Source of the DNA: Phycisphaerales bacterium
Lineage (GTDB): Bacteria > Bacteroidota > Bacteroidia > Chitinophagales > Chitinophagaceae
DNA length: 64,000 nt
Direction of reading: 5' to 3'
NCBI GenBank assembly: GCA_030054025.1
Contig: JASGCQ010000003.1
Coordinates: 182-64,181 of the forward strand
Positions 721 through 54,356 of this stretch are shown here, one piece after another. Under the pieces are notes generated by a model. The model had not been told where the DNA came from and ran no database searches. It saw nothing but the letters and a program-made list of their open reading frames with translations. How positions within the stretch are numbered: the first letter of the stretch is position 1; every line of letters begins with the position of its first letter. The position numbers were made by a program, and so were the translations under genes.

Positions 721-776
721 ATACTTTAGCCAATTTGGGATTGCAAAAATAGACAGTTTTCTGTTTCTGCAAAATA

Positions 777-49134: not shown

Positions 49135-49291
49135 TATTCGTGAGTTTTTAGTTATCAATATATCAGGACAAAAATAAAAAAGTACTTGGATAAACCAATT
49201 ATATTTTATTCAGACATGACCAATAATAAAGAACTAAAACTCTTTTTTGTTTTCTCAATAAACATCCTATATTTGCAACCCAATTGAAAAC

Positions 49292-49550: not shown

Positions 49551-50063
49551 TTACTGTCTTTGGTAAGTTGAAATCATCGTCAAATTATCATACACGGTGT
49601 CTATGCTGCCGTCGTTGTAATAACGAGTGTATGGTCCTGTGTATTGTATTTTTAGTGTTGATTTATCTAATTGTATAATTTTCGAATCAGTTGCCTTACC
49701 GAGTATCACTATATGTAAGGTGTCTGATTTTACAGACCAAATACCACTGCGAATTAATTGGCCATCTGTACTATTACACTTTGTAGCACCTTCTTCAAGG
49801 TCAAGAATTTTCTGTTCTAAAAAAACTGTGAGATCATCTTTTCGACAATCGGGCAGAACATTCATTTCATAAAAATCATAGCCTGGTTTTCCGTCTGCAT
49901 CATAACCAATAGGCTTGTCTCCCTTTGCTGATAAGCATTTCCATTTTCCAACTATAGAAGTTGTTTCTGTTGTCTTTGGTGTTTCCTTTTCTTCTTCTTT
50001 TTTTGAACAGGAAAGGATTGTCATTGCGGCCATACAGGCCATTAGTTTAATTGCTTTGCTCAT
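49551..50063 (-). CDS. Lipocalin-like lipoprotein
   Basis: ILSC lipobox; SIVGKWK, CRKDD..VF...EEGATKC...SGIW. Confidence 0.75.
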   Translation of the reverse strand: MSKAIKLMACMAAMTILSCSKKEEEKETPKTTETTSIVGKWKCLSAKGDKPIGYDADGKPGYDFYEMNVLPDCRKDDLTVFLEQKILDLEEGATKCNSTDGQLIRSGIWSVKSDTLHIVILGKATDSKIIQLDKSTLKIQYTGPYTRYYNDGSIDTVYDNLTMISTYQRQ

Positions 50064-50087
50064 ATAATTATTGCTTTGTTTTTTGAT

Positions 50088-50567
50088 TTATTCCTGTACA
50101 AACAGTGCTGAAAAACGGCAACTGTCATGCTTATTATCGCGGTTCTTCATCCATATTTCAGGGATCTCAATTAGCTTTTTCCCGTCTGTACCAATTGATA
50201 CTTTTACGGTCGCTGTTTCATAAGGCCGACTGTCATAGACTACATTTACGCCCGTGATAGAGTCGTTTGCGAACATATATACCTGCTTCTGTTCTACGAG
50301 ATCGCCTATGGTATAGTTTCCGCTTTTTATCGGCTCATTGAATGATAAATACCACTGTGCTTTTAGTGTGGTTCCTTCATAAATGCTGCTTCGGAAAGCA
50401 TTGGTTTGGTACAGGACATCGTTAGCGGTGTTGCTATGCCCGTTCACTATCCAATGCGTTTTGAGTGGCTCGCCAGGTGTGTCCGGTGTTTTGTCCTCCT
50501 CTTTTTTGGAGCAGGAGAATAGCAATGTTGCGGTCATACAGACCAGCAGTGTTTTAATGTGTTGCAT
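50088..50567 (-). CDS. Hypothetical lipoprotein (likely start 50567)
   Basis: MQHIKTLLVCMTATLLFSCSKKEE lipobox. Confidence 0.7.
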   Translation of the reverse strand: MQHIKTLLVCMTATLLFSCSKKEEDKTPDTPGEPLKTHWIVNGHSNTANDVLYQTNAFRSSIYEGTTLKAQWYLSFNEPIKSGNYTIGDLVEQKQVYMFANDSITGVNVVYDSRPYETATVKVSIGTDGKKLIEIPEIWMKNRDNKHDSCRFSALFVQE

Positions 50568-50604
50568 TGTTGTATGATTATTTGTGTGAAAAAAGAATGT
50601 TTTT

Positions 50605-51015
50605 TTATTCTGTGTAAATCGTGCCGCATTTGTTGCAATGCCAGGATTTAAGCCATAGATCTCGCAATCCCGGATAAACATCTTTGTTATATCGAAACGC
50701 TTTAAAGGCTATGTATCCTCCAATGGCTGCAATGATGCCACCTAAAAGAACCGTTTGCGCATATACTGCAATTACAATTGCAATAAAAACTATCAGTGGC
50801 ACCCATTTATAGGATTTTTTGGGAGGAGGGGCTGCTTTAGAAGCCAAATATGATTGTGATTTACCAGAAGTGGTAGTTGTTGCCGAACCAATTCCAAAGC
50901 CCGTACCTCCACCGCCGCCAAAGGTGGTGCTTGTTGTGCTGATATGTTGTGTGCCAGATTGAAAAATAATACTCAATCGTTGTGTATTCTCTGATTTACA
51001 TTGTGGGCATTCCAT
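50605..51015 (-). CDS. Small membrane protein with terminal CxxC pairs (split Zn ribbon)
   Basis: MECPQC...Gly-rich linker...two TM helices...WHCNKCG. Confidence 0.7.
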   Translation of the reverse strand: MECPQCKSENTQRLSIIFQSGTQHISTTSTTFGGGGGTGFGIGSATTTTSGKSQSYLASKAAPPPKKSYKWVPLIVFIAIVIAVYAQTVLLGGIIAAIGGYIAFKAFRYNKDVYPGLRDLWLKSWHCNKCGTIYTE

Positions 51016-51039
51016 TGTTTGAATCGTTTTAATAGTTTA

Positions 51040-51255
51040 CTATTTGAGTTTACATTTTGCATTTTGTGAGCTGAATGTTTTTTCAAAAGACTGGCACATG
51101 TCCTTTGCATTCCCTTTTTTTGCAGGAAGCACTTCCTGAAAAACAACGTCACCATTGGCAGTGCATTCACATTGCCAGTCTTTGACTTTGTTACAAGCAC
51201 TAAGGCCACTTAGAATAGTAGTTGCTATAAGAGCAACAAGAAAATTTACTTTCAT
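51040..51255 (-). CDS. Small Cys-rich lipoprotein
   Basis: LSAC lipobox; WQCEC...C...C. Confidence 0.7.
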   Translation of the reverse strand: MKVNFLVALIATTILSGLSACNKVKDWQCECTANGDVVFQEVLPAKKGNAKDMCQSFEKTFSSQNAKCKLK

Positions 51256-51282: not shown

Positions 51283-51933
51283 TTATTTGCTGTTTATTTG
51301 ATGCAGTAAATGGAATACCGTTGCCAAATGCCATTTGCAATTTTTGTTTCTGTAAGTGGGTATTTTTGCTTTATTCAATTCCTTTGTAATAGCGCGCATT
51401 GTAGTGTATCCCTTTGCTTGCAGTTCTTTTATTACAGGTTTCATTTTGTTTGCAAACCTTTTTGAAAGCCGTTTGTTTTTCTTGGCAAGAACAGCGCTGT
51501 ATTTACCCAGTTTTACACCCCTTCGTTTTGCCGCTGCAAGTGCTATTACTGTTCTATACGCTGTATCTTTTCTTTCTTTCTCCGCAACAGCAGCAAGAAT
51601 ATGAAGCGTGAAGGGTTCGGCAAAAGGCGCATCAATTGCCTTAAATGCAACCTTTGATTCAATGAGTGCTGCTATAAAAGCAACGCTTCTACTGAGCCTG
51701 TCCAGTTTTGCAATTAGCAAGGTGGCATTCTGAATTTGACATTCTTTTAGCGCCGCCCTTAGCCCTGGCCTTTCATTACGCTTCCCACTTTCAGTTTCCA
51801 GAAAATCATTGACGATTTTATATCGGTTTATTCTCGCAAATCCTTCCACAGCATACCTTTGAGCATCAAGACCCAGACCGCTGGCTTCCTGTTTTTTCCT
51901 TGAAACACGATAGTATGCTATTGCTTTTTCCAT
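51283..51933 (-). CDS. Small serine recombinase (resolvase/invertase) with a C-terminal DNA-binding helix domain
   Basis: AYYRVS (catalytic Ser), GLGLDAQR, ESGKR.ERP.L, LLIAKLDRLSR, MRAITKELN...IPT...KWHLATV. Confidence 0.92.
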   Translation of the reverse strand: MEKAIAYYRVSRKKQEASGLGLDAQRYAVEGFARINRYKIVNDFLETESGKRNERPGLRAALKECQIQNATLLIAKLDRLSRSVAFIAALIESKVAFKAIDAPFAEPFTLHILAAVAEKERKDTAYRTVIALAAAKRRGVKLGKYSAVLAKKNKRLSKRFANKMKPVIKELQAKGYTTMRAITKELNKAKIPTYRNKNCKWHLATVFHLLHQINSK

Positions 51934-51961
51934 ACCATTGCTACTCCAATTGTGCTCAAAA

Positions 51962-51995
51962 TGTTCAGGTATATACCAACGTTTACCTTTGAACA
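51962..51995 (+). other. Putative recombination site A (34 bp)
   Basis: TGTTCA-GGTATA-TACCAACGT-TTACCTT-TGAACA. Confidence 0.65.
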
Positions 51996-52110
51996 GATTT
52001 GTTCACAGATTAAGTTATTTGACAAGTAGATGATACAACGAAGCCCTGCTTATAGCAAGGCTTTCGAAGAAATTTCAGAAATGAGAATTGATGTATTTAG
52101 ACGGGAGTTT

Positions 52111-52144
52111 TGTTCATAAGTGTACGTTGGTTTACTTATGAACA
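52111..52144 (-). other. Putative recombination site B (34 bp, inverted relative to A)
   Basis: Minus strand TGTTCA-TAAGTA-AACCAACGT-ACACTTA-TGAACA: same arms, core and spacing as site A. Confidence 0.65.
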
Positions 52145-52216
52145 AAAAAATTACAGTATTTTTTTGAATCGGCTATAAATTTTGCGAGGAACAAAATTCA
52201 ATTGTTGCAAAAGTTG

Positions 52217-52711
52217 TTATAGATAGTAATTCAGCAAAGCCATTAAAAACTTGTTGGCATTTTCGAAATTATCTTTCTGTTCATTAATTAACCGTATATC
52301 TTTTTCGCCGTGGAAAAGATTGTTCCGCAATCGAAAAATGATTATTGCAATAGCAATAATTTTCTCATTGGTAGGTGCGGCTGTATTAGTAAGAGTGGTA
52401 GATACGAAAAGCATTTTATCGGCGGCTCTGAATTTTAAATGTTCAAACCTGTCATTGGTCTGCCTGTTCGTTACATACCTGTTTGAGAAGTAGGAATATA
52501 CCTCCTCAAATTGACTCCAATCCAAAGCCGTATTATTAATTAACGAACGTTCAATTACATCGGCGGTGCAGAACCTACCACAAACCTTGTCTTCAAAAAT
52601 GTTCCAGAATAGAGAGAAGTATTTAACGGACTCTAATTCTACTTCGTTCAGATCCACTCCAAACTTCAGATTTATCCAGTTGAGGAGGGGTGTGAATTTT
52701 GCTTCTGTCAT
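52217..52711 (-). CDS. Putative HEPN-domain ribonuclease
   Basis: FSLFWNIFE N-terminal helix and RLRNNLFHGEK (R-x4-H) near the C-terminus. Confidence 0.65.
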   Translation of the reverse strand: MTEAKFTPLLNWINLKFGVDLNEVELESVKYFSLFWNIFEDKVCGRFCTADVIERSLINNTALDWSQFEEVYSYFSNRYVTNRQTNDRFEHLKFRAADKMLFVSTTLTNTAAPTNEKIIAIAIIIFRLRNNLFHGEKDIRLINEQKDNFENANKFLMALLNYYL

Positions 52712-52770
52712 GTAATTCTACGATTAGTTTTATTTGAAATTGATTAAACTTAGATTAGGATACTTTGGTT

Positions 52771-53658
52771 TTATTGGTTTTCAACACTTCGTTCTTTATC
52801 CTTACAGATAATGAGCATTATCGGAACTCCAGGACGATCGTGCTCCGCTTTATATTCTGGGTAGTAATAATAATAGTTGAATAAATCTTTCAGATGCTCC
52901 AGTCCAATTCCTCGCACCGTGCGGCTTGGTGCTTTACCAGAACCTACATTCAGTAGATCATTCACAATACAGTTCCAACCGTTATCAAGTTTGTTTCTAG
53001 GAGTGGTAAATTTCAATCCCATTTTCATCTCAAGGAAAAGTTGGATAAAGCAATCCCATCCATAATTTAAATTGCTTGAGCTGGGAATATCCTTTGCTAC
53101 GGGATGCCCATTATTTAGTATCAGGTATGACAAAGCTCTGTCCCGCAAATGGTCATAGTCAGGTAACATTCTTAACGAGGATAAACTACTTGAAAATCTT
53201 GCGACTGTATTTGGCATTTCGAATGTTATATCAGATTCATAAAGGCACCTTTGAGATTCTGAATTAAGAACATCAGTTTTCTTTGCCTGCATAATATTGG
53301 CTGTTGAGAAAACGGTTTTCTTGTGCTTATCAAGCAATATAAATACCGTCATCAAATCACCTAGCTCGCAACCCGGAGAACTACCAGTGCAGCTTCCAAT
53401 TGAATCTGCTGTTCGGGTAATTATAGGCTTGCCATGACAGAATACCGAAGCGAATTTTAATTCAAAATTTGTTTCCTCAGTAATTTTCTTTGCAATATTT
53501 TGGTTTAAATAGTCAACCCCCTTTCCCGGGCTTAATAAATATTGTTTTATTATTTCTGGCTCCTCTTTTGCAAAGTTTATCCCAAGCCAACTATTGCTTG
53601 CTTCAGTTCTGATCAAATCCGAATAGGCAGAAATCATATTAATGTATTGTCTGATCAT
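52771..53658 (-). CDS. Putative PD-(D/E)xK restriction-endonuclease-fold nuclease
   Basis: CELGDL...ANIMQAK: acidic residue(s) followed by a QxK motif on a beta-strand. Confidence 0.5.
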   Translation of the reverse strand: MIRQYINMISAYSDLIRTEASNSWLGINFAKEEPEIIKQYLLSPGKGVDYLNQNIAKKITEETNFELKFASVFCHGKPIITRTADSIGSCTGSSPGCELGDLMTVFILLDKHKKTVFSTANIMQAKKTDVLNSESQRCLYESDITFEMPNTVARFSSSLSSLRMLPDYDHLRDRALSYLILNNGHPVAKDIPSSSNLNYGWDCFIQLFLEMKMGLKFTTPRNKLDNGWNCIVNDLLNVGSGKAPSRTVRGIGLEHLKDLFNYYYYYPEYKAEHDRPGVPIMLIICKDKERSVENQ

Positions 53659-54356
53659 ATGGGTTTGTTTTTTGTAATCTCATCAAAAGGAAGCGCACTA
53701 TTTTCAATTGTATAATAGCCGAATTTAATAGCAGCAATAACAAGCCCAACCCGAGAATTTATTTGTAGTTTTTCAAACAGTCTGGATCTTATACCATCAA
53801 TAGTTTTGAATGTAGTTCCACATTGAATCGCTATGTCAGCATAGCTTAAATCGGAACATATCAGTTTCATAAATTCAATCTCTCTATCATTCAATACAAC
53901 AGGTTTACTTTTTGAATTAGCTATCTCTTCTATCTTTCGTTCGCTTATTGTTTCATTATAGTAATAGCCTTTTGCAATCACTTTTTTAATTGCAAAATTG
54001 AGTTCCTCAGGTGTGCATGATTTCAGCATAAACCCATTTGCGCCTGCTTTTATCACCTCAATCACCTCATGTTCGTGATCAAAAGAAGATAGTATAATAC
54101 AAGGTAAACCTGGCCATCTTTTTTTTATTTCTTTCAAAAGAACAATCCCATTCATCACTGGCATATTTATATCAATAAGGCAGGCATCTGGTAACTCGTC
54201 AGATAATAAAAGCATATCCAACATTTCCTGACCATTCTTTGCCTGTATTGTTACTTTCATTTTTCTTTTTTCCTCAATGCAATGAGTTATTCCTTCACGG
54301 ACTGCATTATGATCATCGGCAAAAGCGATCTTCTTAATATTGGCTTTCGAATTCAT
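53655..54356 (-). CDS. NarL/LuxR-type response regulator (orphan)
   Basis: IAFADDH, CLIDINMP (phospho-Asp), ILSS, GFMLK, LNDREIEF..LI..DLSYADIA HTH. Confidence 0.92.
   Translation of the reverse strand: MNSKANIKKIAFADDHNAVREGITHCIEEKRKMKVTIQAKNGQEMLDMLLLSDELPDACLIDINMPVMNGIVLLKEIKKRWPGLPCIILSSFDHEHEVIEVIKAGANGFMLKSCTPEELNFAIKKVIAKGYYYNETISERKIEEIANSKSKPVVLNDREIEFMKLICSDLSYADIAIQCGTTFKTIDGIRSRLFEKLQINSRVGLVIAAIKFGYYTIENSALPFDEITKNKPI

What the first reader, a model, noticed from the sequence alone, without database searches (positions are those of the whole stretch)
51962..52144. Inverted 34-bp site pair whose inversion would build a perfect promoter for the adjacent serine recombinase
Seen: starting 28 bp upstream of the recombinase start are two sites with identical architecture in opposite orientation, 115 bp apart. 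A (plus) = TGTTCA-N6-TACCAACGT-TTACCTT-TGAACA; B (minus) = TGTTCA-N6-AACCAACGT-ACACTTA-TGAACA. The inner arm of A contains TACCTTTG (the TAnnTTTG -7 element) but has AATG where the -33 box should be. The outer edge of B has TTTG but no -7 box at the right distance. Crossover in the shared ACCAACGT core gives, on minus, TTTG-TTCATAAGTAAACCAACGTT-TACCTTTG: TTTG, 20 nt, TAnnTTTG, the exact Bacteroidota sigmaA consensus, pointing at the recombinase gene. Established: serine recombinases act on dyad sites with a central crossover, and inverted sites give inversion; Bacteroidota invertons usually flip an intact promoter. Inference: this switch is split, assembling the promoter from two halves (as at IS circle junctions), so the recombinase may control itself and the four small genes after it. 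The assembled state would be OFF.
Basis: partly seen in the sequence, partly recalled or inferred. Interest (0 to 1): 0.82.

Follow-up and report, generated by a model that had tools for sequence, protein, structure and literature searches.

The report
Self-controlled invertible promoter switch, split
Upstream of a small serine recombinase gene lie two inverted copies of its 34-bp recombination site, and flipping the 149 bp between their centres would join a fixed -33 box to a movable -7 box, making the only good promoter for the recombinase and four surface-protein genes; the layout recurs in 29 related loci, but the flipped form was never seen.

Summary
Sites A (51962-51995) and B (52111-52144) are 34-bp dyads, 115 bp apart. 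Their centre dinucleotides are inverted (AA/TT). They are the only two such sites in 64 kb.

The recombinase (51283-51933, minus strand) belongs to a large uncharacterised family of small serine recombinases. Most members, many on plasmids, have one such dyad 45-77 bp upstream. In one plasmid member a natural recombination joint maps to the dyad centre.

A Chitinophagales/Cytophagales subgroup has the two-site layout (29 distinct loci):
- Centre dinucleotides match in inverted orientation in all 25 checked loci, and they differ between loci.
- Only the proximal inner arm carries TAnnTTTG.
- The distal outer edge is TTTG.
- Of eight possible junction promoters, only the hybrid made by inversion scores 9-10 out of 10, in 17 of 17 loci.
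- No other gene-directed -7 box lies upstream.

All 29 loci, and every contig laid on the switch, are in the unassembled (OFF) orientation. No raw reads were available, so inversion is inferred, not shown. The -33 box is only an enhancer of promoter strength in this phylum.

Verdict: probably a real switch, a new variant of the invertible promoter, possibly self-resetting.

The parts
51962..51995 (.). It is a 34-bp dyad with its axis between 51978 and 51979. The centre dinucleotide is AA on the + strand.
   Evidence: The site is positionally equivalent to the single site at -45..-88 in relatives. It is 100% identical in loci whose recombinase is 89% identical, while the segment between the sites differs.
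52111..52144 (.). It is a 34-bp dyad with its axis between 52127 and 52128. The centre dinucleotide is TT on the + strand, so it is inverted relative to A. With its flanks it forms a perfect 14-nt arm palindrome, TTTTGTTCATAAGT/ACTTATGAACAAAA.
   Evidence: (pairs I1, I5).
51979..52127 (.). Predicted invertible DNA, 149 bp between the two crossover points. It consists of the inner arm of A, the 115-bp segment 51996-52110, and the inner arm of B.
   Evidence: Inferred from the dyad centres and the matched centre dinucleotides. Only this orientation was observed.
51984..51991 (+). -7 box TACCTTTG (TAnnTTTG) in the inner arm of site A. At present it points away from the recombinase gene.
   Evidence: The equivalent arm carries a perfect TAnnTTTG in 13 of 17 loci and a 5/6 match in the rest, whereas the other three arms never score 6/6.
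52143..52146 (-). Fixed -33 box TTTG at the outer edge of site B. After inversion it would lie 20 nt upstream of the -7 box.
   Evidence: TTTG at this place in 16 of 17 loci, and in 24 of 25. Caveat: the inner edge of the distal site is also TTTG in 12 of 17.
51960..51963 (+). AATG at the -33 position of the present, outward-facing arrangement. It is a poor -33 box.
   Evidence: The proximal outer edge is TTTG in only 1 of 17 unbiased loci.
52039..52066 (.). Imperfect hairpin, CGAAGCCCTGC-TTATA-GCAAGGCTTTCG, in the middle of the segment. Its role is unresolved.
   Evidence: Similar hairpins occur in some relatives (L002, L011, L014, L167), but the T-tract orientation is inconsistent. Folding energy is not significant against shuffles on either strand.
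51283..51933 (-). Small serine recombinase, 216 aa. It has an N-terminal resolvase catalytic domain (Ser11 in YYRVS), a long helix E, and a helical C-terminal DNA-binding domain of about 70 aa.
   Evidence: Pfam PF00239, E = 2.6e-23. Distant match to Gin, 4m6f, E = 1e-10. AlphaFold2 model pLDDT 82, with nearest folds being serine-recombinase catalytic domains.
49551..51255 (-). Four tightly spaced cargo genes after the recombinase. They are a 71-aa lipoprotein (51040-51255), a 136-aa zinc-ribbon membrane protein (50605-51015), a 159-aa lipoprotein (50088-50567) and a 170-aa lipoprotein (49551-50063).
   Evidence: The same gene order occurs in L167-L170. Identity to those loci falls from 80% to 31% along the operon, while the recombinase is 89% identical. 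No minus-strand TAnnTTTG lies between 49177 and 55854.

Best explanation
This is an invertible promoter switch run by the adjacent small serine recombinase.

Proposed mechanism:
1. The enzyme binds as dimers to the two 34-bp dyad sites, which have 17-bp half-sites.
2. It cuts at the centre dinucleotide (AA/TT) and inverts the 149 bp between the centres.
3. The essential -7 box (TACCTTTG) lies in the invertible inner arm of the proximal site. A -33 TTTG lies in fixed DNA at the outer edge of the distal site.

The two states:
- In the orientation found in this window and in every relative (OFF), the -7 box faces away from the operon with a poor -33 (AATG). No canonical promoter faces the recombinase gene.
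- After inversion (ON), TTTG-N20-TACCTTTG is formed at the distal position and reads through the flipped segment into the recombinase gene and four small surface or membrane protein genes.

Inferred consequence: the recombinase is itself the first gene under the switch, so ON makes the enzyme that can flip the switch back, while OFF depends on low read-through from the upstream response-regulator operon. The population would therefore sit almost entirely in OFF, with short ON episodes.

What is shown and what is inferred:
- Shown: the site anatomy, its conservation and covariation, and the location of a natural crossover in a relative.
- Inferred: the inversion itself, promoter activity, and the feedback.
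For: The sites are real:
- There are only two in 64 kb.
- They are 100% conserved in loci with an 89%-identical recombinase, while the segment between them diverges. The same contrast appears in a strain variant of L027, which has 15 differences in or beside the segment and none in the sites.

They are the family's crossover sites:
- Relatives across phyla carry one 34-bp dyad 45-77 bp upstream of the gene.
- In the plasmid-borne member P0086, contigs L189 and L190 are 100% identical over 5.6 kb from the right half-site onward and unrelated to the left of site positions 15-17.

D x P exchange is selected for:
- The centre dinucleotides are reverse complements within a locus in 17 of 17 loci, against 58 of 272 between loci. 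The count rises to 25 of 25 with extra loci.
- The dinucleotides vary between loci: AA, GA, AG, GT, AT.

Promoter logic:
- A perfect TAnnTTTG occurs only in the proximal inner arm, in 13 of 17 loci.
- The distal outer edge is TTTG in 16 of 17 loci.
- The hybrid made by inversion scores at least 9/10 in 17 of 17 loci (mean 9.76). The seven other junction combinations average 5.5-7.8.
- No gene-directed TAnnTTTG lies between the switch and the ATG in 17 of 17 two-site loci. Single-site Bacteroidota relatives have one within 100 nt of the ATG in 4 of 9.
- The consensus is used in this genome: the tRNA-Phe and tRNA-Asn genes are preceded by TTTG-N18-TAnnTTTG.

Cargo: small lipoproteins that diverge far faster than the recombinase, as expected for variable surface proteins.
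Against: - The inverted form was never observed. All 29 distinct two-site loci are OFF.
- Logan contigs of 15 runs show only OFF and no strand-change joints. Contigs drop rare variants, and no raw reads were available.
- A metagenome scan for the assembled promoter found only OFF-state proximal sites.
- The -33 TTTG is dispensable for activity in Bacteroidota. It is absent from most -7 boxes upstream of genes in this window.
- TTTG also flanks the inner edge of the distal site (12 of 17) and both edges of single-site relatives, so it may be part of the recombinase site.
- TAnnTTTG alone is not rare here: 98 occurrences against 88 +/- 8 expected.
- Six loci have a palindromic AT centre, which does not by itself dictate inversion.
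Confidence: 0.55

Rival explanations
1. An ordinary inverton. Inversion happens, but the -7 box alone is the promoter that is flipped. The fixed TTTG is a flank preference of the recombinase site (an A/T tract beside the dyad), and its coincidence with a -33 box adds little.
For: - TTTG also flanks the inner edge of the distal site in 12 of 17 loci, and both edges of single-site palindromes.
- The -33 motif was not detectable globally in F. johnsoniae and is not essential.
- Most -7 boxes upstream of genes in this window lack TTTG at -33.
Against: - The proximal site does not share the TTTG flanks. Its outer edge is TTTG in 1 of 17 loci and its inner edge is mostly TCTG, so the flank is not a general requirement of the enzyme.
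- The spacing to the -7 box after exchange is exactly 20 nt in every locus.
- Literature states that the -33 box is needed for full activity.
Confidence: 0.2
2. There is no inversion. The two dyads form a fixed regulatory or res-like region. The recombinase, ancestrally a plasmid resolvase, binds both sites to repress or loop its own upstream region, or one site is an accessory subsite. The outward -7 box drives a divergent or antisense transcript.
For: - Only one orientation is seen in 29 loci and in all contigs.
- The family is mostly plasmid-borne with a single site overlapping the gene's promoter region, like Tn3 res/tnpR.
- In 7 of 16 loci a divergent gene starts just beyond the distal site.
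Against: - Binding-only or accessory sites have no need for matched centre dinucleotides, yet these match in 25 of 25 loci while varying between loci.
- Both sites have the same 34-bp geometry as the proven crossover site.
- The upstream gene is co-directional in 9 of 16 loci, so an outward promoter has no consistent target.
- This reading leaves the operon without any canonical promoter.
Confidence: 0.15
3. Inversion occurs but acts through something other than promoter assembly. Examples are flipping a terminator or leader hairpin that gates read-through from the upstream response-regulator operon, or switching an outward small transcript on and off.
For: - A hairpin lies in the middle of the segment here and in several relatives. 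In L011 it is followed by a T-run in the gene direction.
- The upstream genes are co-directional and close: the 164-aa gene ends 72 bp from site B.
Against: - The hairpin is not present in all loci and its T-tract orientation is inconsistent.
- Folding energies are not significant on either strand, with mean z about -0.2 to -0.3.
- No terminator was called in the segment.
- This reading does not explain the conserved TAnnTTTG arm.
Confidence: 0.07
4. A chance palindrome pair with no function.
For: TAnnTTTG and TTTG are common in this AT-rich genome.
Against: - There are two sites where 0.29 are expected.
- The same architecture occurs in 29 loci with recombinases as little as 43% identical.
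- The sites are invariant while the intervening DNA diverges.
Confidence: 0.01

Closest known systems
Hin/Gin/Cin/Pin DNA invertases and their invertible segments (Salmonella H segment, phage Mu G segment)
   Same: - A small serine recombinase acts on two inverted dyad sites.
- A non-palindromic centre dinucleotide fixes orientation, and must match between the sites (own knowledge).
- In Salmonella the inversion moves a promoter.
- The catalytic domain here is detectably similar to Gin (4m6f, E = 1e-10).
- The core here, ACCAACGT, resembles the hix core.
   Different: - Sites are 34 bp with 17-bp half-sites, not 26 bp.
- There is no HTH_7 hit. The C-terminal domain is about 70 aa and weakly resembles the large-serine-recombinase 'Recombinase' domain.
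- The recombinase gene lies outside and downstream of the invertible DNA, not inside it.
- The segment is only 149 bp.
- The crossover lies between -33 and -7, whereas the Hin promoter is intact inside the segment.
- Whether a Fis-like enhancer is needed is unknown.
Bacteroides fragilis Mpi and the invertible polysaccharide promoters (Bacteroidales invertons)
   Same: A serine invertase in Bacteroidota flips short (about 150-230 bp) promoter-bearing segments that control surface molecules, using promoters of the TTTG / TAnnTTTG type (own knowledge).
   Different: - Mpi acts in trans on many loci from a separate gene, and the whole promoter lies inside the segment.
- Here each switch has its own recombinase as the first gene of the controlled operon, and the promoter spans the crossover.
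- The protein is not an Mpi family member: NF009949 scores 35 bits against a cut-off of 272.
Tn3/gamma-delta resolvase with res, and Sin/beta-type two-subsite res sites
   Same: - The recombinase binding sites lie immediately upstream of its own gene and overlap its promoter region, which allows autoregulation.
- The wider family here is mostly plasmid-borne with one site, and crossover at the site centre is seen in nature.
   Different: - res subsites have different spacings, and the accessory subsites are not crossover sites.
- Here both sites have identical geometry and matched, covarying centre dinucleotides in inverted orientation, which predicts intramolecular inversion between them.
Junction promoters of IS circles (IS911, IS30, IS2 and others)
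   Same: A strong promoter for the recombinase gene is assembled by the recombination event itself, from a -35-type half on one end and a -10-type half on the other. The assembled state is transient because the enzyme it drives destroys it (own knowledge).
   Different: - Those are DDE transposases joining two element ends in a circle.
- Here a conservative serine recombinase would do it reversibly by inversion at a fixed chromosomal locus, with downstream cargo genes co-expressed.
E. coli fimS with orientational control of FimE
   Same: Expression of a recombinase depends on the orientation of the switch it flips, which biases the population toward one state (own knowledge).
   Different: - FimE is a tyrosine recombinase encoded upstream of the switch and is controlled through mRNA stability.
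- Here it is a serine recombinase downstream of the switch, controlled through promoter formation.

Membership tests
Small serine recombinases (resolvase/invertase superfamily, PF00239) | N-terminal resolvase catalytic domain with the nucleophilic serine near residue 10 | tested here: met
   PF00239 E = 2.6e-23, residues 4-140. S11 in YYRVS lies in a column conserved in at least 90% of 34 relatives. The AlphaFold2 model's nearest folds are serine-recombinase catalytic domains.
Small serine recombinases (resolvase/invertase superfamily, PF00239) | Dyad-symmetric binding site with crossover at a central 2-bp overlap | tested here: met
   34-bp dyads. A natural joint maps within about 2 nt of the dyad axis in the relative P0086. 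Centre dinucleotides match in 25 of 25 loci. Cleavage chemistry was not tested.
Hin/Gin-type DNA invertases | 26-bp hix/gix-type sites and a C-terminal HTH_7 domain | tested here: not met
   Sites are 34 bp. No HTH_7 hit was found, only a sub-threshold PF07508 match. Similarity to Gin is limited to the catalytic domain.
Hin/Gin-type DNA invertases | Dependence on a Fis-bound recombinational enhancer | not testable with these tools
   No enhancer-like conserved element was identified. The segment between the sites diverges freely.
Mpi family master invertases (NCBIfam NF009949) | Score above the curated cut-off of the family model | tested here: not met
   35.2 bits against a cut-off of 272.
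Invertons (invertible promoters) | Inverted repeats flanking a short intergenic segment next to a recombinase gene | tested here: met
   Found in 29 loci.
Invertons (invertible promoters) | A promoter element inside the invertible DNA | tested here: met
   By motif only. TAnnTTTG lies in the proximal inner arm, conserved in 13 of 17 loci as a perfect match and as 5/6 in the rest. Promoter activity was not measured.
Invertons (invertible promoters) | Both orientations present in sequence data | tested here: not met
   Only one orientation was found in 29 loci and in the contigs of 15 runs, and pattern scans found no assembled form. The test is weak because only consensus contigs were available, not raw reads.
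Multi-subsite res sites (Tn3, Sin, beta) | Accessory subsites with different half-site spacing or arrangement from the crossover site, with no need for a matched centre | tested here: not met
   Both sites are 34 bp with the same arrangement, and their centres match and covary.

The most novel reading that the evidence does not exclude
A self-resetting, split-promoter inverton. Conservative site-specific recombination crosses over between the -33 and -7 elements, so the only strong promoter of the invertase's own operon exists in just one orientation. Because the invertase is the first gene of that operon, the ON state produces the enzyme that erases it. The result would be a portable pulse generator that keeps populations almost entirely OFF. 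Chitinophagales and Cytophagales have placed it in front of varied cargo: small surface lipoproteins, T9SS-secreted proteins, and radical-SAM peptide clusters.
Probability: 0.4. Interest if true: 0.85.

Novelty: new variant of a known kind. Interest (0 to 1): 0.7.

Why it matters
Invertible promoters are the main known route to phase variation in Bacteroidota. In the described cases a complete promoter is flipped, and the recombinase is expressed independently of the switch. Here the crossover point would lie inside the promoter, and the recombinase would sit under the promoter it builds.

If confirmed, this would have four consequences:
- It would add a new regulatory logic: negative feedback and strongly biased, pulse-like switching.
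- It would explain why read-free genome surveys see only one orientation.
- It would give annotation a recognisable signature: a 34-bp dyad pair, TTTG on the outside and CAAAnnTA on the inner proximal arm. This signature covers a family of thousands of proteins now labelled only 'recombinase family protein'.
- It would provide a compact (about 0.85 kb) natural part for recombinase-based circuits in Bacteroidota.

It also identifies the crossover site of a large, uncharacterised plasmid resolvase family.

Tried and rejected
1. Direct detection of the flipped form failed.
   - Logan contigs of 15 runs (X1-X5, X9, X10, X12, X16, X18, X24, X25, X32-X34) showed only the OFF orientation and no strand-change joints.
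   - No run was held as raw reads.
2. The metagenome scan for the assembled promoter (TTTGTTCA-N16-TAnnTTTGAACA) gave 85 hits. Only 5 lay next to a family recombinase, and all 5 were OFF-state proximal sites whose outer flank happens to be TT.
3. A looser pattern in viral contigs gave 113 hits, none near a family recombinase.
4. A third subsite was rejected. TGTTCA at 52000-52005 forms TGAACAGATTTGTTCA with A's right arm, but it is not conserved in the 89%-identical loci, which read TGCGGACA.
5. Cassette capture at the distal site was rejected. Homology with L167 breaks at 52146, but L167 carries remnants of the 295-aa gene, so the difference is a deletion there.
6. A conserved RNA structure or terminator in the segment was not supported.
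   - The apparently more stable 'anti' strand (14 of 17 loci) disappears when compared with shuffles: mean z is -0.2 against -0.3.
   - No terminator was called.
   - There were no Rfam hits.
7. An outward promoter serving a divergent gene was rejected as a general role, because the upstream gene is divergent in only 7 of 16 loci.
8. Membership in the Mpi or Hin families was rejected.
9. Literature searches for an inversion-split or inversion-assembled promoter found no precedent. The library lacks many subscription papers, and the Mpi and PhaseFinder papers were not held.
10. PADLOC and NCBIfam gave nothing for the two upstream genes.

Full report
**1. The observation**

The sequence is as described.
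- Site A is 51962-51995, TGTTCAGGTATATACCA|ACGTTTACCTTTGAACA.
- Site B is 52111-52144, TGTTCATAAGTGTACGT|TGGTTTACTTATGAACA.
- The repeat finder reports them as one inverted pair of 34 nt with 115 nt between the arms.
- Each site is itself a dyad. The axis falls between 51978/51979 in A and 52127/52128 in B. The centre dinucleotide is AA in A and TT in B, so the sites are inverted.
- With its flanks, B is a perfect 14+14 palindrome (pair I5).
- TGTTCA-N22-TGAACA with up to one mismatch occurs nowhere else in the 64 kb. The expected count is 0.29.
- Site A begins 28 bp from the ATG (51933) of a 216-aa ORF on the minus strand. That ORF has a Resolvase catalytic domain, PF00239, E = 2.6e-23.
TACCTTTG is at 51984-51991 (+) with AATG at the -33 position. 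TTTG lies at the outer edge of B on the minus strand. Exchange at the centres yields TTTG-N20-TACCTTTG on the minus strand.

**2. The recombinase and its family**

- The protein is only distantly related to characterised enzymes. Gin matches at E = 1e-10 over the catalytic domain. The Mpi family model gives 35 bits against a cut-off of 272. No HTH_7 domain is found.
- An AlphaFold2 model (pLDDT 82) shows the catalytic domain, a long helix E and a helical C-terminal domain of about 70 aa. The nearest solved folds are serine-recombinase catalytic domains.
- The family is very large, with at least 7,992 hits at E <= 1e-10. It is annotated only as 'recombinase family protein' or 'Pin-like invertase'.
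- It occurs on at least 106 PLSDB plasmids, in Hymenobacter, Spirosoma, Paracoccus, Roseomonas and others.
- In Proteobacteria, Verrucomicrobiota and many Bacteroidota the gene is preceded by one 34-bp dyad at about -45 to -77.

**3. The dyad is the crossover site**

Contigs carrying the exact protein P0086 show this. P0086 is 54% identical to this recombinase and sits on a ParA/RepA plasmid backbone.
- Two versions exist, L189 and L190. They are 100% identical over 5.6 kb from the right half-site through the gene and beyond.
- They are unrelated to the left of site positions 15-17.
- Several assemblies also break at this point.
- This is a natural recombination joint at the dyad centre.

**4. 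The two-site architecture is conserved**

Among 80 genome loci, 16 plus the window were picked up automatically as having two sites. The distal site lies at about -170 to -234 and the proximal site at about -50 to -88. They come from Chitinophagaceae, Ferruginibacter, Flavipsychrobacter, Runella, other Spirosomataceae and similar taxa. Four more genome loci, three loci found through protein look-ups, the 89%-identical P0001 loci and four metagenome loci bring the total to 29 distinct loci.

Shared properties:
- (a) Both sites are 34 bp with the same half-site pattern.
- (b) The centre dinucleotides are reverse complements within a locus in 17 of 17 loci, against 58 of 272 between loci. With the extra loci the count is 25 of 25. 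They differ between loci: AA, GA, AG, GT, AT.
- (c) The two sites are invariant between the window and the P0001 loci, while the segment differs. In a strain variant of L027, 15 differences fall in or beside the segment and none in the sites.

Point (b) is what a crossover requirement between the two sites predicts. A binding-only or accessory-site role does not predict it.

**5. The promoter halves**

- Across the 17 unbiased loci, a perfect TAnnTTTG occurs in the proximal inner arm in 13, with 5 of 6 bases in the other 4. It never occurs in the other three arms.
- The distal outer edge is TTTG in 16 of 17 loci.
- I scored all eight possible junction promoters, four in each orientation. The gene-directed hybrid formed at the distal position after inversion reaches 10/10 in 13 loci and at least 9/10 in all 17, with mean 9.76. 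The other seven average 5.5-7.8.
- No gene-directed TAnnTTTG lies between the switch and the start codon in any two-site locus. In contrast, 4 of 9 single-site Bacteroidota relatives have one next to or just after their site, where the recombinase could repress it.
- In the window no minus-strand TAnnTTTG lies between 49177 and 55854.
- The consensus is in use in this genome. Both tRNA genes are preceded by TTTG-N18-TAnnTTTG.

**6. Caveats on 'split'**

- In Bacteroidota the -7 box is the main determinant. The -33 TTTG was not detectable globally in F. johnsoniae (PMC7366714). It is described as not essential but needed for full activity (PMC2483708).
- In this window most -7 boxes upstream of genes lack TTTG at -33.
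- TAnnTTTG by itself is not enriched: 98 occurrences against 88 +/- 8 expected.
- TTTG also flanks the inner edge of the distal site in 12 of 17 loci, and both edges of single-site palindromes.
- The safest statement is therefore as follows. The -7 box is on the invertible DNA at the very edge of the crossover site. The -33 box that would complete it lies on fixed DNA across the crossover. How much the -33 contributes must be measured.

**7. Orientation in nature**

- All 29 loci are in the same (OFF) orientation.
- Logan contigs of 15 runs laid on the switch, or on L027, are collinear with OFF and show no strand-change joints.
- A metagenome scan for the assembled promoter returned only OFF-state proximal sites with a TT flank. 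A viral-contig scan returned nothing relevant.
- Contigs drop minor variants and no raw reads were held, so a minority ON population is not excluded. ON is clearly never the majority state.
- This is either evidence against inversion or the expected outcome of the wiring. The recombinase gene is the first gene downstream of the assembled promoter, so ON raises the enzyme level and OFF lowers it. That drives the population to OFF.
- OFF-to-ON switching would need basal enzyme. The most likely source is read-through from the co-directional operon upstream: response regulator 53655-54356, a 295-aa gene and a 164-aa gene that ends 72 bp from site B. This step is inference.

**8. Cargo**

- The four genes after the recombinase encode a 71-aa lipoprotein, a 136-aa zinc-ribbon membrane protein and two lipoproteins of about 160-170 aa. 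Intergenic gaps are 24-37 bp.
- The same order is kept in the P0001 loci. Identity there falls to 80, 57, 36 and 31%, while the recombinase is 89% and the sites 100% identical.
- Other two-site loci carry related small lipoproteins, a T9SS-tail protein, or a radical-SAM/SPASM enzyme with a 61-aa peptide.
- The switch-plus-recombinase unit therefore behaves as a portable regulatory module.

**9. Comparison with known systems**

- It works most like a Hin- or Mpi-type serine-invertase promoter switch, but it is a member of neither family (section 2; see the membership tests).
- Three differences stand out. The crossover lies within the promoter. The invertase gene is downstream of, and controlled by, its own switch. 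The site geometry is 34 bp.
- Promoter assembly by recombination is known from IS-circle junction promoters. Orientation-dependent recombinase expression is known from fimE. Both points rest on my own knowledge.
- Four literature searches found no description of an inversion-assembled promoter. The library is incomplete.

**10. Verdict**

- The sites are crossover sites: about 0.9.
- Inversion between them occurs: about 0.7.
- The full model as stated, including operon control through the assembled promoter: about 0.55.
- Novelty: a new variant of a known kind.
- Interest: 0.7.

Noticed in passing
L189:5560-5700 vs L190:4250-4390 (loci of protein P0086): The same plasmid backbone (recombinase, TIR protein, ParA, RepA_C) is joined to two unrelated left-hand modules exactly at the centre of the 34-bp dyad. 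One module has a TonB receptor, a cation efflux protein and ParDE. The other has an acetyltransferase, a HAD hydrolase, DprA and HigBA. The centre dinucleotides differ (AC and TC), which is unexpected for a simple 2-bp overlap exchange.
   Followed up: partly
L029, L030, L035 (genes starting 660-800 nt after the recombinase gene start): In Runella and other Spirosomataceae the same two-site switch and recombinase precede a 61-62-aa Cys/Asp-rich peptide gene and a 444-458-aa radical-SAM/SPASM-like enzyme. This is a possible phase-variable RiPP cluster. The sites there have a palindromic AT centre.
   Followed up: no
window 52217-53658 (-): Two genes (164 aa and 295 aa) between the response regulator and the switch have no hit in Pfam, NCBIfam or PADLOC. 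In the 89%-identical relatives (L167-L170) the 164-aa gene is absent and only remnants of the 295-aa gene remain.
   Followed up: partly
window 49246-49275 (+) and 744-773 (-): Both tRNA genes of the window (Phe and Asn) are preceded by TTTG-N18-TAnnTTTG. These are the clearest full-consensus promoters in the 64 kb.
   Followed up: partly
window 49551-51255 (-): The cargo proteins diverge steeply along the operon relative to the P0001 loci (80, 57, 36 and 31% identity), while the recombinase stays at 89%. This suggests diversifying selection or cassette replacement of the surface proteins.
   Followed up: partly
window 51990-52005: A's right arm and a further TGTTCA form the palindrome TGAACAGATTTGTTCA. 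It is not conserved in close relatives, so it is probably not a third subsite.
   Followed up: yes
window 51958-52105: A metatranscriptome run (X16, wastewater) holds a single 151-nt contig covering site A and the segment in OFF orientation, and nothing on the flanks. It cannot be decided whether this is RNA or contaminating DNA, nor which strand it represents.
   Followed up: no
window 53655-54356 (-); L167:1806-2507; L002 about 2184-2822; L185:1-174: A LuxR-type response-regulator gene lies upstream of the switch, on the same strand, in several otherwise different loci. It might supply conditional read-through that starts the switch.
   Followed up: no
window 51919-51987 (run X18): In one sludge metagenome the contigs fragment inside the switch. 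Two 69-nt variants both end at 51987. The break is not at the predicted crossover and looks like strain variation within or near the -7 box.
   Followed up: no
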